This document shows positions 38,753-57,475 of a stretch of DNA of 64,000 bases, piece by piece. This stretch comes from Patescibacteria group bacterium. Lineage in GTDB: Bacteria; Patescibacteriota; Patescibacteriia; UBA2591; JAQUPP01. Where the stretch lies: assembly GCA_028716665.1 (NCBI GenBank), contig JAQUPP010000001.1:282860-346859 (forward strand). The letters are read 5' to 3'. Every line of letters begins with the position of its first letter. Within the stretch, counting starts at the first letter, position 1. Under the pieces are notes generated by a model. The model searched no databases and was not told the DNA's origin. It worked only from the letters and a program-made list of their open reading frames with translations. Made by a program: the position numbers and the translations under genes.

Positions 38753-38780
38753 AATAATTAATAATCTAATTATAAAATAT

Positions 38781-39398
38781 ATGAACAAAAAAATTATTTG
38801 GATAATTATAATTGTCGTGGTGATTATTGGCGCAGTTATCGTTATTTTAAATCTTCCCAAAAAATCAACTATTCCTGCCACAGGCCAGGGAGAAAAAACA
38901 ACTCCCGTGGTAGTTCCTGAAGGAACTGTAGCCGCCCCGGAATTAAATCTTTCGCAAATTGTAGAACCGAAAGCGATTGTGCCTGGTGCCAGTCCGGTTA
39001 CCGGAGAAGGAAAAATTTTAACTGATGAAGGAAAAATAGCCAGTCCGGAGGGCGTTGCCCCGGGGGCGAAAGAAACCCCAAAACCATCCGCGCCGATTGA
39101 AGAAAATAAAATTCCTAAATCAGCTTTGACGATAAAAGTGAGCGCTCAAAATGGTTATGAACCTTCTCAATTTCGGGCCAAGGCCGGCCAAGTAGTAACT
39201 CTTTGCTTAGTGGGACTTGATGATAAATCGCATAGTCTTAATTTTCGTCATCCGAGTTTAAGCGGGCTGGTGATTACTATTATTGGAACAGAAACAAGAT
39301 GTCTTACCTTTAATGCGCCGATCGCGGGAACTTATGAATTTGCTTGCAGCAATCCGGATCATTCCAAGGAAGTTGGCCAAATGTTTATTACAGAGTAA
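38781..39398 (+). CDS. Membrane-anchored azurin-like cupredoxin (type-1 copper protein)
   Basis: N-terminal TM, Pro/Glu/Thr-rich linker, copper ligands His ('DKSHSLNF'), Cys/His ('FACSNPDH'), Met ('GQMF'); compare azurin C-x-x-P-G-H. Confidence 0.7.
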   Translation: MNKKIIWIIIIVVVIIGAVIVILNLPKKSTIPATGQGEKTTPVVVPEGTVAAPELNLSQIVEPKAIVPGASPVTGEGKILTDEGKIASPEGVAPGAKETPKPSAPIEENKIPKSALTIKVSAQNGYEPSQFRAKAGQVVTLCLVGLDDKSHSLNFRHPSLSGLVITIIGTETRCLTFNAPIAGTYEFACSNPDHSKEVGQMFITE

Positions 39399-41227: not shown

Positions 41228-41599
41228 ATGGAAAATGACAATGTAAATTTTAAAAATGAATTCAAAAAACGCCTTTATAACTGGGTTTTAAGATTAATCA
41301 AGTTTATAGACAAGCTTCCCAAAGACTCCGTATGTAATGTCTTGGGAAAACAGCTTCTAAGAAGTGGAACAAGCATTTTGGCAAATTATATTGAGGCAAA
41401 CTCAGCCAGCTCAAAGAAAGATTTTATTAATTTTTTCACTCATTCTTTAAAATCAGCCAATGAATCTAAGGTTTGGCTGACATTATTAAGAGATACTGAC
41501 AAAGGAGATAAAAATGAATTGCAGTGGTCATTAAAAGAACTGATAGAAATAGCCAATATTCTGGCTTCCAGCATTTTAACTCTCAAGGGTAAGAAATAA
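41228..41599 (+). CDS. Four-helix-bundle protein (PF05635 / TIGR02436, '23S rRNA IVS' / Avd-like)
   Basis: 'LRSGTSILANYIEANSASSKKDFINFF' family signature; 123 aa. Confidence 0.7.
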   Translation: MENDNVNFKNEFKKRLYNWVLRLIKFIDKLPKDSVCNVLGKQLLRSGTSILANYIEANSASSKKDFINFFTHSLKSANESKVWLTLLRDTDKGDKNELQWSLKELIEIANILASSILTLKGKK

Positions 41600-41702: not shown

Positions 41703-41751
41703 ATAAGAGTAAAGTTAGTATTTTTAAGTATAAAATTGATTGTTTAAATAT

Positions 41752-44700
41752 ATGAAAAAACAAATATTTTCTTCAAAAATTATTTATTTTTCGATTTTTT
41801 TAATTTTAATTTGTTTTTCTTATTGGGGAGTAGAAAAAGTAAGGGCAGCTGATCCGCTGGACAATGATCAGATTGATATGCTGAAATATTTAGACATGAA
41901 TGAGCACGGGATTTTTAATTTAGCTACTCCGGTAGATGATGATAACGCCGCGACACAAGGATATGTTAAATCAGTAGTTTTAACAAATACTGGTTGGACG
42001 GCTACTGACAGCTATATTTATTTAACTACTATTGGTAATAGCGTCGGTATTGGAACAACAATTCCGGTCGCAAAATTGGAAGTTGCCAATAATTATAGCA
42101 GCACGGCAACGCTACCTTCGGCTAATATTGGTATAGTTGGGCGTAATTATACAGGTTCCGGCGCTGATGTTATTGGTGTCTATGGACAAGGAAAAACCAA
42201 TGACGCTTCTTATAACAGTTATGGCGGTTATTTTTATGGCACTTATAGCAGTAATAGAAATAAAGCGATTGGTATTTATGCTTATGGAAATGATTATGCG
42301 GCTATTTTGGATGGTACTGTCGGAATCGGATCATCAATACCGGCTACAAAATTAGATGTTAATGGCAATATTGCGGCGAATACCTATTATTCTCGTGGTG
42401 ATCCAATCGGTTATTTTCTTAATCCTGCCGCAGGTGGTACGGGTTGGGGATTATATTCCAATGGTTCTGTATATGCTTCTGGAAGTGATGATAATTATTT
42501 TGCCGGAAGCGTCGGAATTGGAATAACAAATCCGGGAGCAAAACTTTCAATCGTAACACCGGATACCAATTATTCAACAATATGGTCTAATAACGGTGGT
42601 GCAAATAATGAATATCTTTCTTTATATCAAACTGTTGATGATTTTATATTTACTTCCAATAAAAATGGTTCAGGAGTTCGTAAGGGTATAGGAATTACTG
42701 CCACAGGTGCGGATAATACCATGCCTAGTGGAATATATTTAAAAACAGACGGTTATGTCGGAATAGGAACAACAATTCCGGGTTTTAATCTTGATGTTTA
42801 TGGTTCAGGGGTTGTGGCATCGCAAATTGTAAGCACTAATAATTATTCAGCTCAATATATTAAAGGTGGTCAGAGCGGAGATGTACGCTGGGGATTATTT
42901 AGCGGATATCCGAATGTGGGAGATTTTACAATCAGAGAGACAGGAGTTGCTGATTATTTGACAGTCAAAAAAACTACCGGCAATGTCGGTATTGGGACGA
43001 CGATTCCAGGCATGGTATTAACAGTTAATACGAGTACTAATGATCAAGGTATTCAAATTCAAGGAGCAGCATCAAATATTAGTCCTGTACTTAAATTCGC
43101 AACTTCGGCAGGTACTGCTTATGCTCGTATTGGTATTGCGGGTGCAGCTGGTAATTTAGCTACAAACAGTGGTCAAAATGATTTAGTTATTAGAACAGAA
43201 GGTACTCAAAAACTTCATCTTGCTCCAGGAGCCGTTATTACTGAAACTTTGCTTTCTACTGGTTATGTCGGCATTGGAACAACAATCCCATCAACAAATC
43301 TTGATGTTAATGGCCAAATAAAAATCAGAGGAGGGGTACCTGGCGCTGGTAAAATTTTAATTTCGGATGCAGTTGGTTTAGCTACTTGGTCTCCTGCCAC
43401 TTCTATCAGCGATGGCGACTGGACAATTTCCGGCAATAATCAATATTCTGCTGTTTCCGGCAACGTCGGTATTGGGACAACGGATCCGACGGCAATTTTA
43501 CAAATTAATAAATCCACTGGCGGTAGTGGACAAAAATGGTTGATTCTTTCTACGACTGGAGCTTCCAGTGAAGGAATGGTTTTTAGAACTGACAATGGTG
43601 ATATTAATCGTATCACGTCTTATGGTGATTTGTATTTAGAATCCAATAATGGTTCAGGTGCTACTTTAGGACTTGATAGTGGTGGTCATTCTAGTTTTGG
43701 AGGTTATGTTTATGCACCCAGTTTGACTGTAGGTGGACTGGACATTACCCCACCGACAGAGGGAGCTATTATTTCCGGCAATGTCGGTATCGGGGTGACG
43801 GATCCAGTTAGTAAATTAGCAATTTTATCCGGAGCGGGTGTTGGCGGAATTTCAATCGGCACTGATGAAACTTATGCTGCTGTAGCTGCTCCCGACGGCG
43901 GAGCAATAATTGAAGGCAATGTCGGTATCGGTTATACAACTGCTTCTATAGATAAATTAAGAGTTAATGGTTCTATTATGTCTACGGGTCCTGCTGGTGG
44001 GAGTCCGTTGCTTACATCGGCTATTAGAATGTCAGTGGAAGGATCCGGAGCTTATGGACAAGTTCAAACTTATAATTCTGTGCCCTTAGTGTTAAACCCC
44101 ACAACTGCGGGCGGTAATGTCGGTATTGGCGTGACAAATCCGGGTAATAAATTAAGTGTTTATGGAGGCACAATAGGTGCTTATAATTTTGACGGAACCG
44201 ATGGTCTATTAATTGAAGGATATAGCGCTTCAGCTAGCGATGATGCAATGATGCAATTTCATACTTCGGGAGCGCTTTATAAAATGGGAATAGATTATTC
44301 TGATGAAGGAAAATTTAAGCTTACTTATGGTAGTGAAGATAATGGACAGACACAAATTGTAATGACTGGCTCCGGTAAGGTTGGAATTGGATTAGCAAAT
44401 CATACTCCGTTATCCAAACTGGACGTGTCGGGTAATATGGCTATTGGTTCTTATGCCGGGGCTAGCGCCGCACCTTCAAATAGTTTAATAGTTAGTGGCA
44501 ATATTGGTATTGGAACAACAGCACCGGGAATAGATTTAGCTATTGGCGATACTGATACCGGTTTAGATTGGGCGAGTGATGGTAATTTAAAAGTAATGAC
44601 TAATAATTCAGAAAGAATAAGAATCGCTTCAGATGGTAAGGTTGGAATTGGAACAACCGGGCCGGTAAATCCACTTCATATTTATTCGTCATCATCTTCT

Positions 44701-45963
44701 GTAATTCCATTGAGAGTTGACGATTATTATTATACTTATTCAATAGGAGCTGGAACTTTTTCATCGCCCAATACAAATGGATGGCAATTATACAAAGCAA
44801 GCTCGGAAACTTATTATGACAGCGTAGTGGGTGGGCATCATTTTTTGACCTCAGGATCTGAAAAAGTTACATTTACGAGTGATGGTAAGCTTGGAATCGG
44901 AACAGCTACGCCAGCAACATATTTAGACATCAAAGGAACACAAGTTGCCGGAAGCTACGGAGATGCCGCAACAGCGATAAAGATTAATATGACAAATGAT
45001 GCTTCATCAATCTATGGTGGAATTGCATGGAAGGACAGCGAAACAGCGGCCGAGACTTGCGGGATTTATCCTATGCGTTCGGGCGGAGTGAATTATTTCG
45101 ATTTTTTAAATACAGGTACAGTTTATATGAGGTTATTAGGCGGAACAGGAACAATCTTGAATGACAACAGCGCTGACTTGGATTTTCGCGTAGAAAGCAA
45201 TGATAACGCAAATATGTTTTTTGTTGATGGTGGGGCAAATACAGTAACAGTAGGATATAACGGATCACTTGGTTCTAAATTTAATGTTTATTCGGCGACA
45301 AATAACACAACACAATTTACCGGTCATCTATTGAATGTCAGAGCAGGAGATGGAACCACTAATACAATTAGTGAAATTGATTTCGGAGTAGCCAATACAG
45401 TAGCACCAGTTATTATCGGAAGTAAAGTTATAGACGGTTCCGGTGCTACAAAGGGAGATTTTTATATCGGGACAAGAGATTCGACAGATGGAGCAACGCT
45501 TCCAACAGAAAGATTAAGAGTAACAACCGCTGGCAAAGTCGGTATCGGGATAACAAATCCGGGACAAGCATTGGATGTTACTGGAACTATTCGCCAATCA
45601 GCTTGTAAAACAGCCGGTACTCTTTCCGCAAATACTTCAGGTGATATTATTTGTACATCTGATGAGCGATTGAAAAATATTTATGGATATTATCAAGGCG
45701 GACTTGCCGCGCTTTCCGCAATTAATCCGATAAAATTTTCTTATAAAGGAGAAGATTTCGTTCATGTGGGATTCTCGGCGCAGAATGTAAAAAGTGTTTT
45801 ACCTGAAGCCAGCGCCTTGCAGGATAGCGGTTATTGGAGCTTGGACGATACATCAATTACGGCATTAACTGTAAATGCCATCAAAGAACAACAAAAAGAA
45901 ATCGAAGATTTGAAAAATGTTGTCTGTCAATTAAAACCCGATGCAGATGTCTGCAATAAGTAA
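41752..45963 (+). CDS. Giant tail-fibre-like surface protein (about 1400 aa) with a C-terminal peptidase-S74 intramolecular-chaperone (autoproteolytic) domain
   Basis: Signal peptide; N-terminal 'IFNLATPVDDDNAATQGYVKS' tail-fibre-like motif; many GNVGIGTT repeats; C-terminal 'CTSDERLKNIYGY...HVGFSAQNVKSVLPEAS...ITALTVNAIKEQQKEIEDLKN' matches the endosialidase-chaperone domain. Confidence 0.75.
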   Translation: MKKQIFSSKIIYFSIFLILICFSYWGVEKVRAADPLDNDQIDMLKYLDMNEHGIFNLATPVDDDNAATQGYVKSVVLTNTGWTATDSYIYLTTIGNSVGIGTTIPVAKLEVANNYSSTATLPSANIGIVGRNYTGSGADVIGVYGQGKTNDASYNSYGGYFYGTYSSNRNKAIGIYAYGNDYAAILDGTVGIGSSIPATKLDVNGNIAANTYYSRGDPIGYFLNPAAGGTGWGLYSNGSVYASGSDDNYFAGSVGIGITNPGAKLSIVTPDTNYSTIWSNNGGANNEYLSLYQTVDDFIFTSNKNGSGVRKGIGITATGADNTMPSGIYLKTDGYVGIGTTIPGFNLDVYGSGVVASQIVSTNNYSAQYIKGGQSGDVRWGLFSGYPNVGDFTIRETGVADYLTVKKTTGNVGIGTTIPGMVLTVNTSTNDQGIQIQGAASNISPVLKFATSAGTAYARIGIAGAAGNLATNSGQNDLVIRTEGTQKLHLAPGAVITETLLSTGYVGIGTTIPSTNLDVNGQIKIRGGVPGAGKILISDAVGLATWSPATSISDGDWTISGNNQYSAVSGNVGIGTTDPTAILQINKSTGGSGQKWLILSTTGASSEGMVFRTDNGDINRITSYGDLYLESNNGSGATLGLDSGGHSSFGGYVYAPSLTVGGLDITPPTEGAIISGNVGIGVTDPVSKLAILSGAGVGGISIGTDETYAAVAAPDGGAIIEGNVGIGYTTASIDKLRVNGSIMSTGPAGGSPLLTSAIRMSVEGSGAYGQVQTYNSVPLVLNPTTAGGNVGIGVTNPGNKLSVYGGTIGAYNFDGTDGLLIEGYSASASDDAMMQFHTSGALYKMGIDYSDEGKFKLTYGSEDNGQTQIVMTGSGKVGIGLANHTPLSKLDVSGNMAIGSYAGASAAPSNSLIVSGNIGIGTTAPGIDLAIGDTDTGLDWASDGNLKVMTNNSERIRIASDGKVGIGTTGPVNPLHIYSSSSSVIPLRVDDYYYTYSIGAGTFSSPNTNGWQLYKASSETYYDSVVGGHHFLTSGSEKVTFTSDGKLGIGTATPATYLDIKGTQVAGSYGDAATAIKINMTNDASSIYGGIAWKDSETAAETCGIYPMRSGGVNYFDFLNTGTVYMRLLGGTGTILNDNSADLDFRVESNDNANMFFVDGGANTVTVGYNGSLGSKFNVYSATNNTTQFTGHLLNVRAGDGTTNTISEIDFGVANTVAPVIIGSKVIDGSGATKGDFYIGTRDSTDGATLPTERLRVTTAGKVGIGITNPGQALDVTGTIRQSACKTAGTLSANTSGDIICTSDERLKNIYGYYQGGLAALSAINPIKFSYKGEDFVHVGFSAQNVKSVLPEASALQDSGYWSLDDTSITALTVNAIKEQQKEIEDLKNVVCQLKPDADVCNK

Positions 45964-46054: not shown

Positions 46055-46433
46055 ATGAATCAATTTTCAAACCCGAAAAACAAGGAATATAATTTAGAAG
46101 AAAGAACAGCCAAATTCAGCGAAGACATAATAGAATTCATAAGAAGCATTAAGAGAGACGATATTAATCGTAATATTATTACTCAATTAGCGCGTGCCAT
46201 AACTTCAATCGGCGCTAATTATTGCGAAGCTAATGCTTCCAGCTCAAAAAAGGATTTTCGCAATAAAATATATATTTGCAAAAAAAGAGGCCAATGAAGC
46301 AAAATATTGGTTAAGGATATTGGCTAAATATCATCCTGAATTGAAAGAAAAAATAAGAATTTTTTGGCAAGAAGCCCATGAATTTCATCTGATTTTTCAG
46401 AAAATTACCAACACCCTGGATAAAAAAGTTTAA
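46055..46433 (+). pseudogene. Four-helix-bundle (PF05635) gene disrupted by a frameshift in an A7 run near 46270 (two overlapping ORFs, 46055-46297 and 46233-46433)
   Basis: 'ITSIGANYCEANASSSKKDFRNK' continues in the +1 frame as 'IYIAKKEANEAKYWLRIL...'; paralogue of the 41228 gene. Confidence 0.6.
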
Positions 46434-46537: not shown

Positions 46538-47140
46538 ATGAACAAAAAAACAATTTTGACAATCGTCATTATCGTGATACTCGTGGTGGTTGGTATTATT
46601 CTCGTGAAGAATATGCCTGCGCAAAAAACCATTAAAACAACCGTGCCAAAAGAAACGGTTACGCCAGGGACAACTCCAAATGTTGAAACCCCGATCGCTC
46701 CGGTTGAAGGAGCCAAACAAGCCGCGCCTGGGACAAGTTTTGTCACCAAGGAAGGCGAAGTTGTTACTCCGGAAGGAACGCCGGTTAAGCAAGATGCTTT
46801 GCCTGGTGCGCCTGAAGCGCCGAAACAATCAAAATCTTTAACTGAAACAGAAATTCCCGCCGGTTCAGTTCAATTAAACGTAACTGCCAGCGGTTTTACT
46901 CCGAATGAATTTTCCGTCAAAGCCGGTCAAGTTGTCACTTTAACCGTTACTGCCGGTGATGAGAAAACTCACGTTTTTAAATTTGATGACGCCAGTTTAT
47001 CCGCCGTGGCAATCGGTATTGCCGGACACGAAACTCGGGCGATTACTTTTAAAGCACCAGCCAAGGGAGATTATTCTTTCTTTTGTGATGTTCCGGGTCA
47101 TTCCCAGAGAGGCGAGAAAGGCGTGATGCATGTTAAATAG
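46538..47140 (+). CDS. Membrane-anchored azurin-like cupredoxin, paralogue of the 38781 gene
   Basis: 'EKTHVFKF', 'FFCDVPGH', 'GVMHV' ligands; N-terminal TM; conserved 5' region 'attaataatctaatta..atgaacaaaaaaa' shared with 38760-38790. Confidence 0.7.
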   Translation: MNKKTILTIVIIVILVVVGIILVKNMPAQKTIKTTVPKETVTPGTTPNVETPIAPVEGAKQAAPGTSFVTKEGEVVTPEGTPVKQDALPGAPEAPKQSKSLTETEIPAGSVQLNVTASGFTPNEFSVKAGQVVTLTVTAGDEKTHVFKFDDASLSAVAIGIAGHETRAITFKAPAKGDYSFFCDVPGHSQRGEKGVMHVK

Positions 47141-47312: not shown

Positions 47313-49001
47313 TTAATTTACAAGTTTTACAAATTTCAAACTTTTCTTTCCGATTTTCAGGAAATAAATTCCTGAATTAATCGTTTTCCCTAACTCATCT
47401 TCGCCATCCCAAACTGATTCTTTCGGCGATAATTTTTTGACAACCCTTCCGGATATGTCATAGATAGTCGCTTCCGATTCTGAACCCATATTTACAATAT
47501 GCAGTTCTTTTTGGAATGGGTTTGGCCAAACGGAGAAATCTGTGGTTATCTGAATTTTTTCTTCCGTTTCTGCGATGCCGATAATTTCTTCATCCGATGT
47601 CCAGCTAAAATTGTCTAAACAAAAACAATTTTGCGGTATGGGAAATTGTCCCCTGAATTCAACTGTGACGATAGTATCCATTCTTGGAGTAAAAAATTCT
47701 CCTTTTTTGCCCGTATATCGGAAAGTTTTTCCTTTGTTATCAGAAATTACAATCGTATCTCCATCTGCCAAATCAAGATAATTGAAATGAAATCTTGTGC
47801 CCTTGATTCCGCCATTTGAGAAACAATAATGTTTTTCTTTAATCGTGTCATTGATAGTAGGATTCCAATATGGATGATAATAATCATCCGACCGACCAAA
47901 GTACCAATAATATGGGAAATTATTAGTTTTCAGATACTCGTCCCAATTGGTATTTACACTGGATGAAAGCCCATTATAAGTCGTATCGTAATTTCTAGCT
48001 GTCTGCGGGAAATAAATACCAATTACTTCTTGAAGTTTTTGTGAGGCTGGATCATAAACAATCATCTCATCAATATCTTTGACGATGTTATTAGCTATTG
48101 CTCTGATTGAAACAGAAAGTAATGGATCATCGCGAAGTTTTATAGCAAAACTTCCCAATCTTGTTCTTTCGTTAATATATCCTACGTCGTTAATTAGAAT
48201 TTCATCATCGATAATTTGTTGTTTAACACTATCTGATTCTGTTTTTAGAATCAATGCTAAACTGTTAATATCCTGAGTTAATTGATCTATTCCCGAAGTT
48301 TTGATTGCCGAGAATCCATCTGTCTTAGCAAGCGCTACGGCCAAACTTTCTTGACACCAAGATGGATTTTCAAGCAGTCTAATGAAATAAGTCAATCTCT
48401 GGGGGGCATTAGCAGTTGTCCAGCAACCTACTGTCAAATCTACGAGACTTAATAATTCTTGTTGAACTTCCCACTGCTGCATCTGACAGGCCATTAATCC
48501 GAGAATATTGATGTTTTGACCGATTGCTTGTTTTACTCCCGTAATCGCTGTTTTAAATCTTTTATTGGGAATACTCATCCAATCAAAAGGATTTTTATCC
48601 TGAATGATACCATGCCAATTACAGCCATGGCCGTAGAGTATTAGGGCATATTTAGATGTGGTACCCATTTTTTGAATCGCCGCTTGCGAAAATTTTATCA
48701 GTTCGTTTTCATCAGCCATATTAATTTCAGAATCAATAATTTCTTCTACTGATGAATCCCCAAATAAATAATATCTTCGAGTTGGTATGCTGTCGTCAAA
48801 AGCATCTATTTCTATGGCGACATTTACTGGATAAGATTTACCCACGAAATCCATATTACTAATTATGGATTTACAATATTTTTCAGTAATTTCTTGTAAA
48901 TTACCATCCCCACAGATATAGAAAAGCATTGTCCAATCTGCTGTTGCTTTTGGTGTAAAGTTAGAAACTTGTAATAAAATTGTAAAGAACAGGTTAAACA
49001 T
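47313..49001 (-). CDS. Secreted clostripain-like (C11, clan CD) cysteine peptidase with a T9SS-type C-terminal sorting domain
   Basis: 'WTMLFYICGDGNLQ' C11 N-terminal motif; catalytic His 'LILYGHGCNWHG' and Cys 'LGLMACQMQ'; C-terminal 'WPNPFQKELHIVNMG..ATIYDISGRVVKKL....GIYFLKIGKKSLKFVKLV' resembles the Por_Secre_tail domain; SD 'aagggggat'. Confidence 0.7.
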   Translation of the reverse strand: MFNLFFTILLQVSNFTPKATADWTMLFYICGDGNLQEITEKYCKSIISNMDFVGKSYPVNVAIEIDAFDDSIPTRRYYLFGDSSVEEIIDSEINMADENELIKFSQAAIQKMGTTSKYALILYGHGCNWHGIIQDKNPFDWMSIPNKRFKTAITGVKQAIGQNINILGLMACQMQQWEVQQELLSLVDLTVGCWTTANAPQRLTYFIRLLENPSWCQESLAVALAKTDGFSAIKTSGIDQLTQDINSLALILKTESDSVKQQIIDDEILINDVGYINERTRLGSFAIKLRDDPLLSVSIRAIANNIVKDIDEMIVYDPASQKLQEVIGIYFPQTARNYDTTYNGLSSSVNTNWDEYLKTNNFPYYWYFGRSDDYYHPYWNPTINDTIKEKHYCFSNGGIKGTRFHFNYLDLADGDTIVISDNKGKTFRYTGKKGEFFTPRMDTIVTVEFRGQFPIPQNCFCLDNFSWTSDEEIIGIAETEEKIQITTDFSVWPNPFQKELHIVNMGSESEATIYDISGRVVKKLSPKESVWDGEDELGKTINSGIYFLKIGKKSLKFVKLVN

Positions 49002-49131
49002 TTTATCCCCCTTTGTTTGAAAATGACCCTTTTTCGAGTCATTTATTGCCAAGCGAGCGAGGGAAAAGAAAATTTATTTTCTTTTCCGAGCGAGCGCTGG
49101 CAACACAGGGTCTAGTACCCTTTATAAATTA

Positions 49132-49160
49132 ATCTTAGCATAAAATTTTGATTTTGTCAA
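49132..49160 (-). promoter_or_regulatory. Conserved-family promoter on the minus strand (TTGACA-N17-TAAGAT) driving the C11 peptidase gene
   Basis: Reverse-complement of 49155-49160 is TTGACA; spacer 'aaatcaaaattttatgc'. Confidence 0.5.
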
Positions 49161-49213
49161 TCCCTTAAAAGATCGACAATAAAGCCTTTTCAGGGTTAAA
49201 AAGAAAAAGGGGG

Positions 49214-49242
49214 CTGACAAAACCATTAAAATATGCTTAAAT
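49214..49242 (+). promoter_or_regulatory. Conserved-family promoter (CTGACA-N17-TTAAAT), divergent from the previous one
   Basis: 'gggggctgacaaaaccattaaaatatgcttaaatga'. Confidence 0.5.
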
Positions 49243-49285
49243 GATAATAGTTGAACTAATAAGATTTATTATTTATAAAAATATT

Positions 49286-51343
49286 ATGCGCAATAAAATG
49301 AAGTCCGCCAAAGCCCTTGGCAAAAGTGGAAAAAAATTAATTTTATCTTCAAAACTTATTTATTTTCTGGTTTTTTTATTTGTTATTTGTTTGGGAATAG
49401 AAAGAGCGGGAGCAACCGTGCCGAGTCAATATATTATTTCCGACAAAGCGATAAAAATGGGAAATACCACGCCCTTGAAAATTTTTAATTTAGGCACTCC
49501 GGAAGAATCCACGGATGCCACGACAAAACAATATGTTGATTCAATTGCCACGGGCACGGGCGCGATTGGTCTTTGGATGTCCAATGGTGTTGATATTTAT
49601 AATAATAATTCCGGCAACGTCGGTATCGGATCAACAATACCTTCTGCCAAACTGGATGTTGCGGGAGATATTCGTTCAAAAGGAATTTCAAGTTTTCTCA
49701 TAAATACTCAGAATGAGGGTATTGCAATTTTATATCCCGAAACTGCCAATACATATACCCGAATCGGTCCGACCGGTTTTTCTCCAAGTCTTGCAAGCGG
49801 CGCAGATGATTTGGCAATTGTTGGTAAATTGGAAGTAGCGGGAATAGGTTATTTTAACTATAATGTCGGTATCGGAACAACCGGACCAACGCATCATTTG
49901 GAAGTTATTGAGAGAAATGATGGATATGGAGATTGGAGTCATGGTGTTTTGCCTTTTCAACCGGCGGGTGTTTTTATTCAAGCCAGCAATGTTAATTCAG
50001 CCGGTCTTTATGGCGAAGGTTATACTCGAGGTGTTTGGGGAGTGGCGCGAGCCAATGGAGGAAGTGGCTATGGTATTTTGGGAGAAATGGGAAGCGGAGA
50101 ATGCTCTTGGCCTCTTGATGATGCAACGGGTGGCGCTATTGTTGGTGTGACTAATTGTTCATCAGGTAATTCTGGGGTAGCAATAAGGGCAACTGTATTA
50201 ACCGGTGTTGAAGGGTATGGCATTTATTCTCAAGGAAATTTAAGTAAAAATTATTTTGAAGGCAATGTCGGTCTTGGATCGACAACACCGGCCGCTGATT
50301 TGGATATTAACGGTAATGCTCAATTGAATATTCTTTATGATCGCGTTAATTCAAATTATCATCTTGATCTTGGCGCAAATACATTTACCAGTTCTTTGAC
50401 TGTTGCCGGTAATATTGGTATTGGCGTGACGAATCCCGGATATAAATTAAGTATGGCTGACACTGGCAGTTATATTGGGGCGAGTTTTAAATTTGGCGGA
50501 TCTTATGTTCCGGTAAATATAGTTGGCGGTACAAATGTGGGAGCCTATTGGCGTGAAAATTTTATTGGTTCAAATATTGATTTAGATACGACTACTGGAA
50601 AACCCAAAACCAGTGTAAATGGTTATCGAGGAGGAGCGATCGGATTTGCTCCCGATCCCGGGCAAGGACAAATTCATTTTTTTACCAATGCGGGTTCTAC
50701 TGCCGGAACGGTCTTGTCTGAAAGAATGGTTATAGACAGCGCGGGTAATGTCGGTATTGGAATGGCGCCTTCGTACATACTTGATGTTACGGGCGGTCAT
50801 GGAGCAAAAGTCGCAAGATTTACGGGAGGCACCAGCGGAGATAAAAGTTTGTATATGTATGCGGATAGTGGCGGCTCCGGCATAACTGATGCGGATACTT
50901 ACAAAGAATTAATTTATCTTAAGCCGGCGGATAATTCTATAAATTTTTACAATAATGGCAGCGGCCCGAACGTGACGATAAATGCTACCGGCAAAGTCGG
51001 TATCGGAACAACCGCGCCGAATTCCACTCTTCATGTTAATGGTTCTTTCACGAGAGCAATAGTAACCAAAACTTCAACTTATACGGCAACCGCTTCGGAC
51101 GATATTATATTATGTGATGCATCCGGAGGAGGTTTTGTAATTACTCTTCCCACCGCAGTGGGTATTGCCGGAAGAGAATATACGATAAAAAAAATAGACA
51201 GTTCAGCAAATCAGTGCGGTTATACCACGACATCAGGTCAGACAATAGATGGAGTTGCGCTGACTTATCAATTAGGCACTCAATGGCAGACAAGAACAAT
51301 GGTTTCAGATGGAACGAATTGGATAAGATTGTCAAATATTTAA
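49286..51343 (+). CDS. Large tail-fibre-like surface protein (~685 aa) with GNVGIGTT repeats
   Basis: Signal/TM; 'IFNLGTPEESTDATTKQYVDS' tail-fibre-like N-terminal motif; repeats; the ORF-track start at 49241 overlaps its own promoter. Confidence 0.65.
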   Translation: MRNKMKSAKALGKSGKKLILSSKLIYFLVFLFVICLGIERAGATVPSQYIISDKAIKMGNTTPLKIFNLGTPEESTDATTKQYVDSIATGTGAIGLWMSNGVDIYNNNSGNVGIGSTIPSAKLDVAGDIRSKGISSFLINTQNEGIAILYPETANTYTRIGPTGFSPSLASGADDLAIVGKLEVAGIGYFNYNVGIGTTGPTHHLEVIERNDGYGDWSHGVLPFQPAGVFIQASNVNSAGLYGEGYTRGVWGVARANGGSGYGILGEMGSGECSWPLDDATGGAIVGVTNCSSGNSGVAIRATVLTGVEGYGIYSQGNLSKNYFEGNVGLGSTTPAADLDINGNAQLNILYDRVNSNYHLDLGANTFTSSLTVAGNIGIGVTNPGYKLSMADTGSYIGASFKFGGSYVPVNIVGGTNVGAYWRENFIGSNIDLDTTTGKPKTSVNGYRGGAIGFAPDPGQGQIHFFTNAGSTAGTVLSERMVIDSAGNVGIGMAPSYILDVTGGHGAKVARFTGGTSGDKSLYMYADSGGSGITDADTYKELIYLKPADNSINFYNNGSGPNVTINATGKVGIGTTAPNSTLHVNGSFTRAIVTKTSTYTATASDDIILCDASGGGFVITLPTAVGIAGREYTIKKIDSSANQCGYTTTSGQTIDGVALTYQLGTQWQTRTMVSDGTNWIRLSNI

Positions 51344-51443
51344 ATTTAAGATATTTTAAAAGGGTGGGTCGGTAATGGGCTTGCCCTTTTCTTTTTGTAA
51401 AGCTGCAAATTAATTCCTAAAGCCTAAAAAGATAATAACGGGC

Positions 51444-51472
51444 TTGACAAAACGTCTAAAATATGCTTAAAT
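51444..51472 (+). promoter_or_regulatory. Conserved-family promoter (TTGACA-N17-TTAAAT; alternative TATAAT at 51475)
   Basis: 'acgggcttgacaaaacgtctaaaatatgcttaaatgatataat'. Confidence 0.5.
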
Positions 51473-51560
51473 GATATAATAAATAGCTTGAACAATAATG
51501 TTTAGCTAAATAAAACTCGCCTACGCTTAGAAAGTTACGGCGTGGCAAGAAGGAGGAAAA

Positions 51561-52436
51561 ATGTTCTTTAAAATTTTACTAATTGTAGTTTTATCGGTTT
51601 TATTATCAGGATCTGTTTTTTCACAATCTGATTGGGTAGGAGTAGATTCAAATAATGCGCCATCAGCTATTAAAGCGCGTTATTCAAAGGATTGGTTTCG
51701 CAACACAAATACTGTAGAGATTTCTCAAGAACACGGGAATCTTTTTAACAGCCGGCAAAGCCTAAAAATCACCTATATATCAGGGAATATGCAATGCGGG
51801 GACTGTATGTTTATGAAAGTGTTTAACCCGCCAATTCAGATTCAAAGTGATACTCTTTTTTTGAATGCCGAGATTAAAGGTTTCCAAAATGACGATTCAG
51901 TTTATCAAATCAGGGTACATCCCTTCATGTTAAATAATGATAGTATTTTTGAGGCCGACAATTCCATGTGGACAGATACGTCTTGGACACAAGAGGAATG
52001 CGGGCCATTCAGGAAAGAATACAATTATGGTCTTTTTCCTAGAACGATAGATACTCTATTTTTTACTATTAACATATTGGTAAATGATGTTTCTAATCCT
52101 TATGGTATTTACATGGATAATATTTGGTATCTGGACTCTAATGGGGAACAGGTTATAATTGATTCTTGTGGAGAAGATATTGCCGCGGAAGAACCGGGGA
52201 AAATAAAGGATTTAGTTTCTGCTTTCCCAAATCCGTTCTACGATTTTTGCAAATTCAATGCGCCGGCAAATTCTTTGATTGAGATTTACAACCTCAGCGG
52301 TCAAAAAGTTAAGATGATTAAGAATTTTTCTTGGAACGGCCGGGATGAAAATGGCAAAAAATTGCCAAGAGGAATGTATTTTGCAAGTTTTAAAATTGGC
52401 GATAAAACTATGGTGAAGAAATTAGTTTTGATATGA
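51561..52436 (+). CDS. Secreted protein of unknown function with a T9SS-type C-terminal sorting domain
   Basis: Signal peptide; C-terminal 'FPNPFYDFCKFNAPANSLIEIYNLSGQKVKMI...GMYFASFKIGDKTMVKKLVLI'; strong SD 'aggaggaaaaatg'. Confidence 0.6.
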   Translation: MFFKILLIVVLSVLLSGSVFSQSDWVGVDSNNAPSAIKARYSKDWFRNTNTVEISQEHGNLFNSRQSLKITYISGNMQCGDCMFMKVFNPPIQIQSDTLFLNAEIKGFQNDDSVYQIRVHPFMLNNDSIFEADNSMWTDTSWTQEECGPFRKEYNYGLFPRTIDTLFFTINILVNDVSNPYGIYMDNIWYLDSNGEQVIIDSCGEDIAAEEPGKIKDLVSAFPNPFYDFCKFNAPANSLIEIYNLSGQKVKMIKNFSWNGRDENGKKLPRGMYFASFKIGDKTMVKKLVLI

Positions 52437-52566
52437 TGATTACTTATTATGTTGCGGGCAGGATGAAAACCTGCCCGTTTTTTTATTCATATAAAAATGT
52501 AAATATTTTATGTAGAAATTAGTAAATAATAAAACGTAGTATTCATCAGTATTCTAGGTGAGGGGC

Positions 52567-52595
52567 TTGACAAAAATCAAAAAATATGCTAATAT
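52567..52595 (+). promoter_or_regulatory. Conserved-family promoter with extended -10 (TTGACA-N17-TGcTAATAT)
   Basis: 'aggggcttgacaaaaatcaaaaaatatgctaatattta'. Confidence 0.55.
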
Positions 52596-52599
52596 TTAT

Positions 52600-52880
52600 A
52601 TAGAAAATAAAATAAATTCTTCACTTTTCTGTCTATCAGCGACAAAACCAGTCATCCCTCCTAACTGGGAAGTAGTCGCAATTCAAGGTTGATCTTGTTT
52701 GTCAAGCGTAGGCCTTGGGCTGATAGACATAAAAGTGGAGGATTTAAGGGAAGAGGTCATTGGCCTTGCCCCGTAGTGAACTGAGCTTGTCGAAGTTCTA
52801 CTACTGGGGTTCAAATCCAATGGCGGGTATTTGTACAAAGTTCATTTAAAATTAAAAACTAAAAAAGTAGTTTCGAAGAA
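52600..52880 (+). ncRNA. Candidate structured non-coding RNA or long structured 5' leader (~280 nt) with no plausible ORF
   Basis: 11-bp long-range helix tgtctatcagc (52631-52641) / gctgatagaca (52718-52728) enclosing nested hairpins gcgac...gtcgc and ccagt-catccctcctaa-ctgg (CCUCC loop); T-loop-like 'ggggttcaaatcc'; lies downstream of a strong promoter. Confidence 0.4.
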
Positions 52881-52897
52881 GAAGGAGGAGGACAAAG

Positions 52898-53002
52898 ATG
52901 CCAGGAATGAATTATCTGATAGTAATTTTAATAATTTTTATATTAGTAATTCATTTTACATTAGAGAATAGAAAAAATAGGAGAAAAAGGAGGATAAAAT
53001 GA
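52898..53002 (+). CDS. Small hydrophobic peptide (34 aa) whose stop overlaps the next start (ATGA)
   Basis: Strong SD 'gaaggaggagg' 6 nt upstream; 'MPGMNYLIVILIIFILVIHFTLENRKNRRKRRIK'. Confidence 0.4.
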   Translation: MPGMNYLIVILIIFILVIHFTLENRKNRRKRRIK

Positions 53003-53373
53003 AAAAACTTTTGATAGTAATGGGTATATTAGTGATATGTCTTTTTGCAGGGTGTACACAAACTCCAACACAGGTGACAACCACGCCAGAGTCAAAAATA
53101 GTGGAATTTCCCGATCTTGACATAACCGTTACTTTTTATTATGCCAAACCAGGAGAATTGCCAAAGATTAAAATAGATAATCATAATGAAAATGGCGCAG
53201 ATGTCCTGATTGAGAAGGAGACAAATGAATATGAGGAGTGGCTAAATGTCTTTCATGAAAACATAGGAGGAAATTCCTCGGTTATTAAAAACAAAGAATT
53301 CATACCAGGGAAAAAACACAAAATAACCATTAAATGCGAAGAAGTTACTCGAACAGGATATGTAACTCCGTAA
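52999..53373 (+). CDS. Lipoprotein of unknown function
   Basis: Signal peptide with lipobox 'LFAGC'. Confidence 0.5.
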   Translation: MKKLLIVMGILVICLFAGCTQTPTQVTTTPESKIVEFPDLDITVTFYYAKPGELPKIKIDNHNENGADVLIEKETNEYEEWLNVFHENIGGNSSVIKNKEFIPGKKHKITIKCEEVTRTGYVTP

Positions 53374-56989: not shown

Positions 56990-57475
56990 ATGGAAAAGAA
57001 GAATAAAAAAGGTTTTACCTTAATTGAGTTGTTAGTTGTCGTGGCGATTATGGGTTTAATGGCTGCCTTAGCTATTATTTCTTTAAATCAAGCCAGAGCC
57101 AAAGCTCGAGATGCTCGTCGCGTCGCGGATGTTAAACAAATCCAGACCGCGTTAGAATTGTATTATATGGATAAAGATAAATATCCAGATGCTCCTGCTC
57201 CTACTGTTTTGGATGGAAGTAAATGTTTAGGTAACGGTGGTTTTGCCGCACAAGGTTCTTGCACCGCTCCTATTTATATGGGTTTAATCCCGACAAATCC
57301 TGCTCCGATGAATGATGGCTCTTGCTCTACTCCTAACTCAAGTTATACTTACGCGATTGATGGTGGCGCTACTAACACAAGTTATCATATCCGATGGTGT
57401 CTTGGTGCCAAAACTGGCGAATTAGGCGCTGGAATTCATCATGCTACTCCGGCCGGTTTAGTCGATGGTTTATAA
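56990..57475 (+). CDS. Type IV pilin (major-pilin-like), canonical 'KKG|FTLIELLVVVAI'
   Basis: Short positively charged leader, G-F cleavage site, Glu+5, 'ALELYY' region. Confidence 0.85.
   Translation: MEKKNKKGFTLIELLVVVAIMGLMAALAIISLNQARAKARDARRVADVKQIQTALELYYMDKDKYPDAPAPTVLDGSKCLGNGGFAAQGSCTAPIYMGLIPTNPAPMNDGSCSTPNSSYTYAIDGGATNTSYHIRWCLGAKTGELGAGIHHATPAGLVDGL

What the first reader, a model, noticed from the sequence alone, without database searches (positions are those of the whole stretch)
47313..52436. Two secreted proteins with Bacteroidota-type T9SS C-terminal sorting domains (one a clostripain-like C11 peptidase) in an otherwise Patescibacteria-like context
The C-terminal ~75 aa of the C11 peptidase (47313-49001, minus strand) and of the 51561-52436 protein fit the Por_Secre_tail/TIGR04183 pattern (..PNPF......I.......Y...G..V..........G.Y.....G.K......K..). 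The peptidase has the 'YxxGDxNL' start and a His-Gly...Ala-Cys dyad, like gingipain-type cargo. No T9SS core genes (porK/L/M/N, sprA, porU/V) are in the window. Type IV pili, split ComEC and giant proteins argue against a Bacteroidota host. Possible explanations are horizontal acquisition of cargo genes, a CTD-like Ig domain used for another anchoring route, or a lineage misassignment on my part. These genes also have strong SD sequences and the conserved promoter, unlike most neighbours.
Basis: partly seen in the sequence, partly recalled or inferred. Interest (0 to 1): 0.55.

Follow-up and report, generated by a model that had tools for sequence, protein, structure and literature searches.

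The report
T9SS-type sorting tails in a Patescibacterium
Two secreted proteins of a tiny single-membrane bacterium (Patescibacteria/CPR) end in a sorting domain that is otherwise used to cross the outer membrane of Bacteroidota-like bacteria. The domain is real, old, conserved and strongly expressed here, so it probably does another job such as surface retention or binding.

Summary
ORF 47313-49001(-) is a clostripain-family (C11) cysteine peptidase with a CUB-like middle domain. ORF 51561-52436(+) is a 291-aa protein with an unknown N-domain. Both have signal peptides and end in a domain that passes the curated cut-offs of PF18962 and TIGR04183 (T9SS type-A CTD).

The context is a Patescibacteria genome. 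NCBI names the identical proteins that way, on a contig of 640 kb. The window holds monoderm-type genes and no T9SS or outer-membrane genes.

This is not an assembly artefact or a recent transfer. The same locus occurs in at least five other independent assemblies of close relatives. Composition is native, and the CTD is under purifying selection.

The CTDs and the whole C11-CUB-CTD architecture are closest to WOR-3/Cloacimonadota proteins, not Bacteroidota. Both CTD genes are hypervariable between sister genomes (C11 58-77% aa identity versus 98-99% for Der). Inside the peptidase gene, however, the CTD is the constant module.

My best reading (inferred): an anciently acquired cargo cassette is exported by Sec alone, and its CTD has been repurposed as a conserved surface-retention or binding module.

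Absence of a T9SS from the whole genome could not be tested. Interest is moderate.

The parts
47313..49001 (-). Gene for a 562-aa secreted C11 (clostripain-family) cysteine peptidase: signal peptide, C11 domain, CUB-like beta-sandwich, linker, T9SS type-A CTD
   Evidence: ORF. Same 562-aa product is called in NCBI MAGs. PF03415 51.9 bits, PF18962 33.5, TIGR04183 35.7.
48936..49001 (-). Codons 1-22, MFNLFFTILLQVSNFTPKATAD: hydrophobic N-terminal signal-like segment with no basic n-region. The mature C11 fold starts at W23
   Evidence: Read from the sequence. The first beta-strand 'WT.lFYi.GDn.L' aligns to residue 11 of thetapain 6N9J. No signal-peptide predictor was available.
47877..48935 (-). 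C11 catalytic domain (aa 23-375). Catalytic His125 is at 48627-48629 and Cys172 at 48486-48488. Invariant R148 ('PNxRF') between them is a candidate auto-activation site
   Evidence: Pfam match to aa 45-375 of the 579-aa ORF version. H125, G126, A171, C172 and R148 are invariant. The dyad aligns with 6N9J and with WOR-3 P0014. Foldseek top hits are clostripain 9CIP, iotapain 6NAG and thetapain 6N9J.
47592..47876 (-). Middle beta-sandwich, CUB-like (aa 376-470, 'FHFNYLDLADGDTIVISDNKGKTFRYTGK')
   Evidence: All-beta in the AF2 model, pLDDT up to 78. Collinear with the equivalent domain of WOR-3 P0014. Weak Foldseek hit to CUB domain 1SPP. One of 35 nearest relatives hits Pfam CUB. No Pfam hit for this protein itself.
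47316..47534 (-). C-terminal domain (aa 490-562) of the T9SS type-A CTD family, with motifs WPNPF, IYDISGRVV, WDGxDxxGK and GIYFLKIGKKSLKFVKLVN
   Evidence: PF18962 and TIGR04183 above cut-off. The CTD profile's best PDB hits are the T9SS substrate CTDs 8GLK_D and 8GLJ_D over their full length. Between close relatives: aa identity 79-88%, pS 0.30-0.32, dN/dS 0.16-0.31.
49132..49160 (-). Sigma-70-type promoter with extended -10 (TTGACA-17-TGcTAAGAT) of the peptidase gene
   Evidence: The -35 to +20 region is conserved in five homologous loci.
49007..49011 (-). Shine-Dalgarno GGGGG, 5 nt upstream of the ATG
49286..51343 (+). Intervening gene: 685-aa secreted protein with GIGTTxP-type repeats, no CTD and no Pfam hit. 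It is part of the conserved surface-protein locus
   Evidence: Conserved in L009, L012 and L014 with background-level divergence.
51561..52436 (+). Gene for a 291-aa secreted protein: signal peptide (aa 1-21, MFFKILLIVVLSVLLSGSVFS|QSDW), beta-rich N-domain of unknown family (aa 22 to about 205), acidic linker, type-A CTD
   Evidence: ORF. Identical product in 3 public assemblies, named 'T9SS type A sorting domain-containing protein [Patescibacteria group bacterium]'. Homologues in L009, L014, L012 and L018. The N-domain has no Pfam, NCBIfam or PDB match. AF2 model unusable, pLDDT 37.
52224..52433 (+). CTD of the 291-aa protein (aa 222-291): FPNPF, IYNLSGQKV, WNGRDENGKKLPRGMYF, KTMVKKLVLI
   Evidence: PF18962 34.2 bits, TIGR04183 38.8 bits, CHU_C 26.8 bits. 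PDB hits to CTD-bearing proteins 9WHD and 8GLK_D.
51444..51472 (+). Promoter of the 291-aa gene (TTGACA-17-TGcTTAAAT), near-identical in layout to the peptidase promoter
51552..51556 (+). Shine-Dalgarno GGAGG

Best explanation
The window belongs to a monoderm Patescibacteria (CPR) genome. Two strongly expressed genes in a conserved cell-surface locus encode Sec-exported extracellular proteins. One is a clostripain-family (C11) cysteine peptidase with a CUB-like domain. The other is a 291-aa protein with an unknown beta-rich domain.

Each ends in a true sequence member of the T9SS type-A C-terminal-domain family, of the FlgD-Ig-like subtype that dominates in WOR-3 and Cloacimonadota.

The C11-CUB-CTD cassette was taken up long ago from such an FCB-type diderm. 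It is now fixed at one chromosomal site in a genus-level group of CPR bacteria.

These cells have no outer membrane, so the CTD cannot act as an outer-membrane translocation signal. After Sec export it most likely serves as a folded Ig-like module that holds the enzyme on a conserved partner. That partner would be the cell's own wall or surface layer, or a conserved sorting or attachment factor. The catalytic or ligand-binding N-terminal parts diversify rapidly, as expected for proteins that act on host or prey surfaces.

Shown here: domain identities, lineage, synteny, selection pattern, likely donor type, expression signals.

Inferred: Sec-only export, absence of a T9SS in the rest of the genome, and the retention/binding role of the CTD.
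For: Domain identity
- Curated-threshold hits to PF03415, PF18962 and TIGR04183.
- The CTD profile matches solved T9SS substrate CTDs 8GLK_D and 8GLJ_D end to end.
- The catalytic dyad is invariant.
- The C11 fold is recovered.

Lineage
- NCBI names the proteins 'Patescibacteria group bacterium', on a 640-kb contig.
- Window genes are monoderm/CPR-type and no T9SS or outer-membrane families are hit.
- Patescibacteria are described as monoderm (PMC11665869).
- The T9SS moves cargo across the outer membrane of FCB bacteria (PMC11205867; abstract of PMC10202324).

Not an artefact, not recent
- The order LytR-Der-Pth-lipoprotein-[CTD genes]-cupredoxin-S74 giant protein recurs in NCBI, JGI, ENA and Logan assemblies.
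- GC is 0.350 and 0.353 against a window mean of 0.357; GC3 and RSCU are also within range.

Donor type
- The best-scoring named CTD relatives are from WOR-3, Cloacimonadota and Eisenbacteria, and they hit both PF18962 and PF13860. Bacteroidota CTDs score far lower.
- WOR-3 protein P0014 is collinear over C11, CUB-like domain and CTD (E 1e-29).
- 10 of the 35 nearest C11 relatives carry PF18962.

Function retained
- CTD dN/dS is 0.15-0.31.
- The genomes are very close: Der 98-99% aa identity, pS 0.19-0.36. The C11 gene is only 58-77% identical with pS 0.47-0.67. The 291-aa gene is 35-86% identical with pS 0.33-0.74.
- Nucleotide identity is 68-80% in the C11 gene against 87-92% in the flanks.
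- Within the C11 gene, the CTD segment keeps background-level pS of 0.30-0.32 and 79-88% aa identity.
- Both genes have consensus extended -10 promoters and strong SDs, which are rare in this genome.
Against: - The whole genome could not be read, so absence of T9SS components rests on 64 kb plus general knowledge of the phylum.
- No experiment or structure shows what the CTD binds.
- Both AF2 models are low-confidence (pLDDT 37 and 51).
- The peptidase signal peptide lacks a basic n-region, and no signal-peptide predictor was available.
- A more distant CPR homologue, P0011, has lost the PNPF and WDGxD motifs. Its CTD is therefore not equally constrained everywhere.
- Conservation of the CTD motifs could reflect folding needs only.
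Confidence: 0.55

Rival explanations
1. Host-directed decoy. The epibiont secretes CTD-tagged proteins that dock onto the T9SS shuttle or attachment machinery (PorV/PorU type), or onto the surface glycolipid, of an FCB-type host such as WOR-3 or Cloacimonadota. This would deliver the protease to the host surface.
For: The CTDs are closest to those of WOR-3 and Cloacimonadota and keep the full set of type-A motifs that match solved translocon-bound CTDs. The CTD is the constant module, as expected if it recognises a conserved machine. CPR bacteria are described as obligate epibionts (PMC11665869).
Against: From general knowledge, T9SS components meet the CTD from the periplasmic side or in the translocon lumen, not from outside the cell. 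No host is known for this lineage. There is no co-occurrence or binding data. The conserved partner could equally be a CPR component.
Confidence: 0.08
2. The CTD acts as a removable pro-domain or folding aid, like pre-peptidase C-terminal domains. It helps folding or keeps the enzyme inactive during Sec export and is then cleaved off, possibly by the C11 peptidase itself.
For: Members of the WOR-3 relative's cluster are annotated as pre-peptidase C-terminal domain proteins. 4 of 35 nearest C11 relatives carry PPC domains. An acidic, variable linker precedes the CTD in both proteins. From general knowledge, C11 enzymes self-process.
Against: The 291-aa protein has no peptidase domain yet keeps the same CTD. 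The CTD hits the sorting-domain models, not PPC.
Confidence: 0.12
3. Vestigial passenger. The CTD came along with the transferred genes and has no role of its own in the CPR cell.
For: No cognate machinery is visible in the window. A distant homologue, P0011, has a decayed CTD.
Against: CTD dN/dS is 0.15-0.31 and its aa identity is higher than that of the catalytic domain. It is retained intact in every copy at the syntenic locus, in two unrelated protein families and in tandem paralogues. A useless 70-aa tail should have been lost in a 640-kb streamlined genome.
Confidence: 0.08
4. Ordinary T9SS cargo: this lineage has an outer membrane and a T9SS encoded elsewhere in the genome.
For: The proteins have the canonical cargo layout of signal peptide plus type-A CTD. 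Only 64 of about 640 kb were inspected.
Against: The phylum is described as monoderm (PMC11665869). The window has FemAB, LCP and other monoderm-type envelope genes and no outer-membrane genes. From general knowledge, a T9SS plus outer-membrane biogenesis would need tens of kb in a 640-kb genome. No paper links CPR and T9SS.
Confidence: 0.03
5. Assembly or binning artefact: FCB-derived genes were mis-joined to a CPR contig.
For: One homologous contig is labelled 'Candidatus Omnitrophica'.
Against: The same gene order, with CPR housekeeping genes on both sides, appears in independent NCBI, JGI, ENA and Logan assemblies. Composition is native. The 'Omnitrophica' contig carries the same Der/Pth/LytR genes, so the label is the error.
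Confidence: 0.01

Closest known systems
T9SS type-A CTD cargo proteins of the FCB superphylum (TIGR04183/PF18962), e.g. the Flavobacterium johnsoniae substrate CTDs in PDB 8GLK/8GLJ and the WOR-3 protein MCK4528699.1 (P0014)
   Same: N-terminal signal peptide plus a C-terminal domain of about 70 aa with the PNPF, IYD-xGR-V and GIYF...K..K motifs. Profile scores are above the curated cut-offs. The match to solved CTDs runs end to end. The C11-CUB-CTD architecture is the same as in WOR-3.
   Different: The host is a monoderm Patescibacterium and no T9SS or outer-membrane genes are in view. The CTD therefore cannot have its defining role of outer-membrane translocation followed by PorU-dependent attachment. 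The subtype carries the FlgD-like WDGxDxxG insert.
Clostripain family C11 peptidases (clostripain 9CIP; PmC11; Bacteroides thetaiotaomicron thetapain 6N9J and iotapain 6NAG)
   Same: Pfam C11 match, His-Gly/Ala-Cys dyad, N-terminal 'GDNNL' strand, a candidate basic auto-cleavage site between His and Cys, and secreted.
   Different: Very divergent: phmmer finds no PDB hit and the profile reaches only E 0.007. It forms an isolated clade of about 6-10 sequences among 1.8 billion representatives. It has extra CUB-like and CTD domains. It is hypervariable between sister genomes.
Gingipains (RgpB/Kgp, family C25) of Porphyromonas gingivalis
   Same: Caspase-like cysteine peptidase plus Ig-like domain plus type-A CTD layout, and a secreted effector (general knowledge; the layout here is shown).
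   Different: A different peptidase family, C25 rather than C11. Gingipains are T9SS- and A-LPS-dependent in a diderm.
FlgD Ig-like domain (PF13860)
   Same: The central 'W-x-G-x-D-x-x-G-x-x-v-x-x-G-x-Y' strand-loop-strand aligns with FlgD structures 3OSV and 4ZZF.
   Different: Scores are below the Pfam cut-off (17.5 and 19.1 against 27). FlgD lacks the PNPF start and the K-rich C-terminal strand, which match only T9SS CTDs.
C-terminal surface-retention modules of monoderm bacteria (SLH, LPXTG/sortase, cell-wall-binding repeats)
   Same: The proposed working analogy is a conserved C-terminal module that keeps a variable extracellular enzyme on the cell surface (inference).
   Different: There is no sequence relationship. 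No sortase motif, SLH or LysM was detected in these proteins. The binding partner is unknown.

Membership tests
T9SS type-A C-terminal sorting domain (TIGR04183 / PF18962), as a sequence family | Profile score above the curated cut-off | tested here: met
   Peptidase: PF18962 33.5 (cut-off 27), TIGR04183 35.7 (cut-off 23). 291-aa protein: 34.2 (27) and 38.8 (23).
T9SS type-A C-terminal sorting domain (TIGR04183 / PF18962), as a sequence family | Domain lies at the extreme C-terminus and spans the whole model, with the conserved motifs | tested here: met
   Model positions 1-71 of 72 and 2-70 of 72, ending 2-3 residues before the stop. End-to-end alignment to 8GLK_D and 8GLJ_D.
T9SS cargo, as a functional class | N-terminal Sec signal peptide | tested here: inconclusive
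   Hydrophobic N-termini with plausible cleavage sites were read by eye. The peptidase lacks a basic n-region. No predictor was available.
T9SS cargo, as a functional class | Genome encodes the T9SS translocon and attachment complex (SprA/Sov, PorV, PorU, PorK/L/M/N) | not testable with these tools
   None found in the 64-kb window. The remaining roughly 576 kb of the genome could not be fetched.
T9SS cargo, as a functional class | Diderm envelope with outer membrane and LPS for translocation and anchoring | tested here: not met
   Indirect evidence only. The lineage is named Patescibacteria, a phylum described as monoderm (PMC11665869). The window holds FemAB, LytR-CpsA-Psr and D-Ala-D-Ala carboxypeptidase but no outer-membrane biogenesis genes.
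Peptidase family C11 (clostripain family, clan CD) | Pfam PF03415 above the gathering score over most of the model | tested here: met
   51.9 bits against 25.8, model positions 2-357 of 359.
Peptidase family C11 (clostripain family, clan CD) | Catalytic His-Cys dyad in the conserved H-G and A-C motifs | tested here: met
   H125-G126 and A171-C172 are invariant in 6 homologues. They align with the corresponding motifs of 6N9J and P0014. H and C are invariant across 35 distant relatives.
Peptidase family C11 (clostripain family, clan CD) | Caspase-like alpha/beta fold | tested here: inconclusive
   Foldseek top hits are 9CIP, 6NAG and 6N9J (E 3e-5 to 2e-4, TM 0.24-0.48), but the model's mean pLDDT is only 51.
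Peptidase family C11 (clostripain family, clan CD) | Proteolytic activity and auto-activation by cleavage after a basic residue | not testable with these tools
   Invariant R148 in 'PNxRF' between His and Cys is a candidate site. This is inference only.
T9SS type-B CTD (TIGR04131 / CHU_C PF13585) | Profile score above the cut-off | tested here: not met
   CHU_C 16.7 and 26.8 against 27. TIGR04131 13.7 against 35.
FlgD Ig-like domain (PF13860) | Profile score above the cut-off | tested here: not met
   17.5 and 19.1 bits against 27.

The most novel reading that the evidence does not exclude
A CPR epibiont has captured the T9SS sorting signal of its FCB-type hosts. It uses it as a conserved address tag on fast-evolving secreted effectors (a protease and a binding protein). 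The tag would work either by docking onto the host's T9SS shuttle or attachment proteins, or through a still unknown CTD-recognising sorting or attachment system in a single-membrane cell. Either way, the type-A CTD would have a biological role outside type IX secretion.
Probability: 0.12. Interest if true: 0.8.

Novelty: new variant of a known kind. Interest (0 to 1): 0.45.

Why it matters
The type-A CTD is treated as a marker of type IX secretion. It is routinely used to count 'T9SS cargo' in genomes and metagenomes.

Here it is conserved, selected and highly expressed in bacteria that should have neither an outer membrane nor a T9SS. This has two consequences.
- CTD counts can mislead outside the FCB group. 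PGAP already labels these proteins 'T9SS type A sorting domain-containing'.
- It offers a natural test of what the CTD fold can do without its secretion system.

It also points to a small hypervariable set of secreted proteins (protease, binding protein, lipoprotein, pilin) in an otherwise near-identical genomic frame. These are candidates for host-interaction factors of an uncultured CPR genus, and WOR-3/Cloacimonadota-like bacteria are possible past or present partners.

Tried and rejected
- **Structure route.** AF2 of the 291-aa protein (3-sequence alignment) gave pLDDT 37 and was not searched. AF2 of the peptidase gave pLDDT 51 and was used only to confirm the C11 fold.
- **N-domain of the 291-aa protein.** No Pfam, NCBIfam or PDB match. 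Only 2 close homologues were found by the word-indexed search. Its function is left open.
- **GTDB representative genomes.** The scan with the peptidase alignment returned only one locus, the STD1_195 MAG. No broad taxonomic picture came from that tool.
- **Names for further C11 relatives.** A second cluster look-up returned almost no names.
- **Reading the whole 640-kb genome.** The encoding-contig look-ups returned only 17-kb MAG fragments and never the long contig.
- **Literature.** No paper links Patescibacteria/CPR with T9SS CTDs. The sample name 'Sandtown' was not found.
- **Recent HGT.** Rejected on composition and synteny.
- **Chimeric assembly.** Rejected on independent assemblies.
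- **Upstream TTG start at 49052 for the peptidase.** Rejected in favour of the ATG at 49001, which has the SD and is the start called in the public MAGs. The start region MF..., K18 and W23 are conserved in all homologues.
- **The conserved RNA block at 52563-52745.** I first thought it was anomalously conserved. The housekeeping genes of the same genomes are themselves 91-95% identical at nucleotide level, so it is a conserved RNA gene rather than an anomaly.

Full report
**What is there.** The region 47313-52436 holds three genes.
- On the minus strand, 47313-49001 encodes a 562-aa protein. The same ATG start is used in public gene calls. It follows a GGGGG Shine-Dalgarno box.
- On the plus strand, 49286-51343 encodes a 685-aa repeat protein.
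- On the plus strand, 51561-52436 encodes a 291-aa protein.

The 562-aa protein hits Pfam Peptidase_C11 (51.9 bits, cut-off 25.8). Its last 70 residues hit Por_Secre_tail (PF18962, 33.5 against 27) and TIGR04183 (35.7 against 23). The last 70 residues of the 291-aa protein hit the same two models (34.2 against 27; 38.8 against 23). Hits to FlgD_ig, CHU_C and the type-B CTD model are all below their cut-offs.

A profile of the CTDs of this family aligns end to end with two solved T9SS substrate CTDs, 8GLK_D and 8GLJ_D. FlgD structures match only the central 'WDGxDxxG...G.Y' part.

His125-Gly and Ala-Cys172 are invariant in six homologues. They align with the catalytic motifs of thetapain 6N9J and of a WOR-3 relative. 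Although the AlphaFold model is poor (pLDDT 51), its best PDB matches are clostripain, iotapain and thetapain.

Between the C11 domain and the CTD lies a beta-sandwich of about 95 aa that looks CUB-like. The N-domain of the 291-aa protein matches nothing and could not be modelled. A six-frame scan with a CTD HMM finds the domain only in these two ORFs of the window.

**Whose genome it is.** The identical proteins are in NCBI as 'MAG: clostripain-related cysteine peptidase' and 'MAG: T9SS type A sorting domain-containing protein' of a 'Patescibacteria group bacterium'. Their longest contig is 640,230 bp.

The window encodes DnaB, RecR, FemAB, a D-Ala-D-Ala carboxypeptidase, TIM, DnaJ, MetRS, NrdD/NrdG, HtrA, a release factor and GlmS. 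It also encodes a split ComEC, PilD with several pilins, a Wzy_C protein, LytR-CpsA-Psr, Der and Pth. It contains no T9SS, BAM, Lpt or Lpx family.

Patescibacteria are described as monoderm (PMC11665869). The T9SS is an outer-membrane translocation system of the FCB superphylum (PMC11205867; PMC10202324 abstract). I could not obtain the rest of the genome, so absence of a T9SS is inferred, not shown.

**Not an artefact and not recent.** The gene order is LytR - Der - Pth - small lipoprotein - [CTD genes and 685-aa gene] - cupredoxin - four-helix-bundle protein - giant S74-domain protein. It recurs in independent assemblies:
- GCA_028713475.1 and GCA_028690995.1, plus two Logan runs (same sequence as the window);
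- GCA_028716625.1 and GCA_043956535.1;
- GCA_043956575.1, which has two tandem C11-CTD paralogues;
- GCA_028717225.1, where the C11-CTD gene lies next to a 312-aa homologue of the 291-aa protein;
- JGI Ga0265297 and an ENA assembly.

A further JGI contig has the 291-aa homologue but no peptidase within the 6.7 kb I fetched. One of these contigs is labelled Omnitrophica, but it carries the same housekeeping genes, so the label is wrong. GC, GC3 and codon usage of both genes lie within the window's range.

**Where it came from.** In a full HMMER scan of 1.84 billion representatives the peptidase family is tiny. There is one 50%-identity cluster, one more distant CPR-like homologue (P0011, 415 bits) and a fragment. 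Scores then drop to 137 bits or less for generic C11 proteins.

The only other protein that is collinear over C11, CUB-like domain and CTD is from candidate division WOR-3 (P0014; 23% identity, E 1e-29). Ten of the 35 nearest C11 relatives carry PF18962 and eight carry FlgD_ig.

A CTD-only profile search gives WOR-3, Cloacimonadota and Eisenbacteria as the best named hits. All of these show the PF18962 plus PF13860 double signature. Bacteroidota CTDs appear only at E values of 1e-4 or weaker. The cassette therefore most likely entered an ancestor of this CPR group from a WOR-3/Cloacimonadota-like diderm.

**How it evolves now.** The genomes compared are very close.
- Der is 98-99% identical in protein and 91-96% in DNA (pS 0.19-0.36).
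- Cupredoxin is 91-98% identical (pS 0.18-0.37).
- The 685-aa protein is 76-94% identical (pS 0.16-0.37).

In the same frame, the divergent genes are:
- the C11 gene, only 58-77% identical to the window's copy (pS 0.47-0.67);
- the 291-aa gene, 35-86% identical (pS 0.33-0.74);
- the adjacent lipoprotein and a pilin, which are similarly divergent.

By blastn the C11 gene is 68-80% identical while its flanks are 87-92%.

Inside the C11 gene the pattern is mosaic. The catalytic domain has pS 0.56-0.73 and 60-72% aa identity. The CTD has pS 0.30-0.32 and 79-88% identity against the three closest copies, with dN/dS of 0.15-0.31. So the CTD is the constant, selected module of a fast-diverging secreted protein. 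Raised pS as well as pN suggests old allelic lineages or recombination, as seen at surface-antigen loci. This last point is my inference.

**Expression signals.** Both genes have a near-consensus TTGACA-17-TGnTAnnAT promoter with the same extended layout. The peptidase promoter and a short leader hairpin are conserved in five loci. Both genes have strong SD boxes, although only about 8 of 54 genes in the window do.

**Most likely mechanism.**
- Both proteins are exported by Sec. This rests on signal peptides read by eye; the peptidase's signal is atypical.
- With one membrane there is nothing for a T9SS to cross. The CTD's defining function is therefore unavailable, yet the domain is kept under selection.
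- Because it is the conserved part of otherwise diversifying proteins, it most likely binds a conserved partner. The simplest candidate is the cell's own wall or surface layer, or a conserved attachment factor. This would keep a variable protease and a variable binding protein at the epibiont's surface, where they could act on host material.
- I put this at about 0.55.

Alternatives are a removable pro-domain (0.12), docking onto a host's T9SS components (0.08), a vestigial tail (0.08), true T9SS cargo (0.03) and an artefact (0.01).

**Comparison with known systems.** By sequence, both tails are members of the type-A CTD family and the enzyme is a member of family C11. As a functional class, 'T9SS cargo' fails on the envelope criterion (indirect evidence) and is untested on the machinery criterion, so I do not file these proteins there. 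Gingipains (C25) are an analogy only.

**Novelty.** The database annotation already exists, since PGAP gives the proteins these names. I found no paper that notes or explains T9SS-type CTDs in Patescibacteria. I rate this as a new variant of a known kind. Interest is moderate at 0.45, and would be higher if the CTD proves to have a defined T9SS-independent role.

Noticed in passing
window 52563-52745 (promoter 52563-52595; RNA about 52603-52745): A third copy of the GGGCTTGACAAAA / TGCTAATAT promoter drives a structured RNA of about 145 nt (leader 52600-52890: MFE -90.4, z -5.1). It has no Rfam match. From the -10 box through the RNA (about 165 bp) it shows only one variable position (C/T in 'GTCG[C/T]AA') across 7 loci, while the -35 box and spacer vary slightly. 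One hairpin loop carries CCCUCC (anti-SD-like). It is found only in this CPR group: 3 JGI contigs, plus the NCBI and ENA contigs fetched earlier. The flanking housekeeping genes are 91-95% identical, so it looks like a conserved RNA gene of unknown family rather than an anomaly.
   Followed up: partly
window about 52750-52832; L009 4968-5047; L012 7450-7531; L011 7767-7840: Directly after that RNA, sister genomes carry a tRNA: Tyr-GTA in L009 and L012, Ile-GAT in L011. The window and L014 keep only a degenerate tRNA-like remnant that shares the 3' half GGTTCAAATCCAATGGCGGG. Gene content next to this site varies between genomes (C11 paralogues, Y1 transposase, GIY-YIG), which suggests a recombination or integration hot spot.
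   Followed up: partly
window 52899-53000: A 33-aa hydrophobic small ORF (MPGMNYLIVILIIFILVIHFTLENRKNRRKRRIK) with a strong SD. Its stop overlaps the start of the 124-aa lipoprotein gene. It is conserved in L009 but absent in L012, L014 and L011.
   Followed up: no
window 49047-49098 (minus strand), within the peptidase 5' UTR: An insertion of about 80 nt that forms a long perfect hairpin (leader MFE -43.1, z -5.2). It is present only in the window's copy. Other genomes have different insertions at nearby positions, so these may be small mobile palindromic elements.
   Followed up: partly
whole window: Only about 8 of 54 genes have a recognisable strong Shine-Dalgarno sequence. Those that do are mostly small secreted or membrane proteins (7734, 12174-, 19552-, 47313-, 51561, 52999), plus the RecR-family gene at 800-1615. 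Most genes have A/T-rich upstream regions with no SD.
   Followed up: partly
window 52999-53373 and 56990-57475: The 124-aa lipoprotein (24-79% aa identity) and the 161-aa N_methyl pilin (about 78% to the window's copy) are also far more divergent between sister genomes than Der, LytR or cupredoxin. They form a set of hypervariable surface genes together with the two CTD genes.
   Followed up: partly
window 34706-38752, 41740-45963, 49286-51343: Three large secreted proteins with 'VGIGTTxP'-type repeats. One (1407 aa) ends in a Peptidase_S74 intramolecular-chaperone domain, as in phage tail spikes. Two of them have a cupredoxin-domain protein encoded close downstream (38685-39398, 46538-47140).
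   Followed up: no
window 41228-41599, 46055-46297, 32704-33762: Several '23S rRNA intervening-sequence' four-helix-bundle (bAvd-like) genes. One is truncated to 80 aa and one appears fused to a pilin-like N_methyl protein. No reverse transcriptase was seen in the window.
   Followed up: no
L010 (GCA_043956535.1, JBINNZ010005391.1): This contig is deposited as 'Candidatus Omnitrophica bacterium' but carries the same CPR locus as the Patescibacteria MAGs. This is probably a binning or taxonomy error in the public record.
   Followed up: partly
L016 3165-4913 (Logan ERR14790953): A more distant C11-CUB-CTD homologue (P0011, 582 aa) in a different gene context (RecG, UPRTase, PaaX_M, HopA1). Its CTD has lost the PNPF and WDGxD motifs but still hits PF18962.
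   Followed up: partly
window 51621-51626 (aa 21-22 of the 291-aa protein): The predicted signal-peptidase site is followed by Gln (VFS|QSDW), and this is conserved in the two closest homologues. From general knowledge it recalls the Bacteroidetes 'Q-rule' for exported proteins. The L012 homologue lacks it.
   Followed up: no
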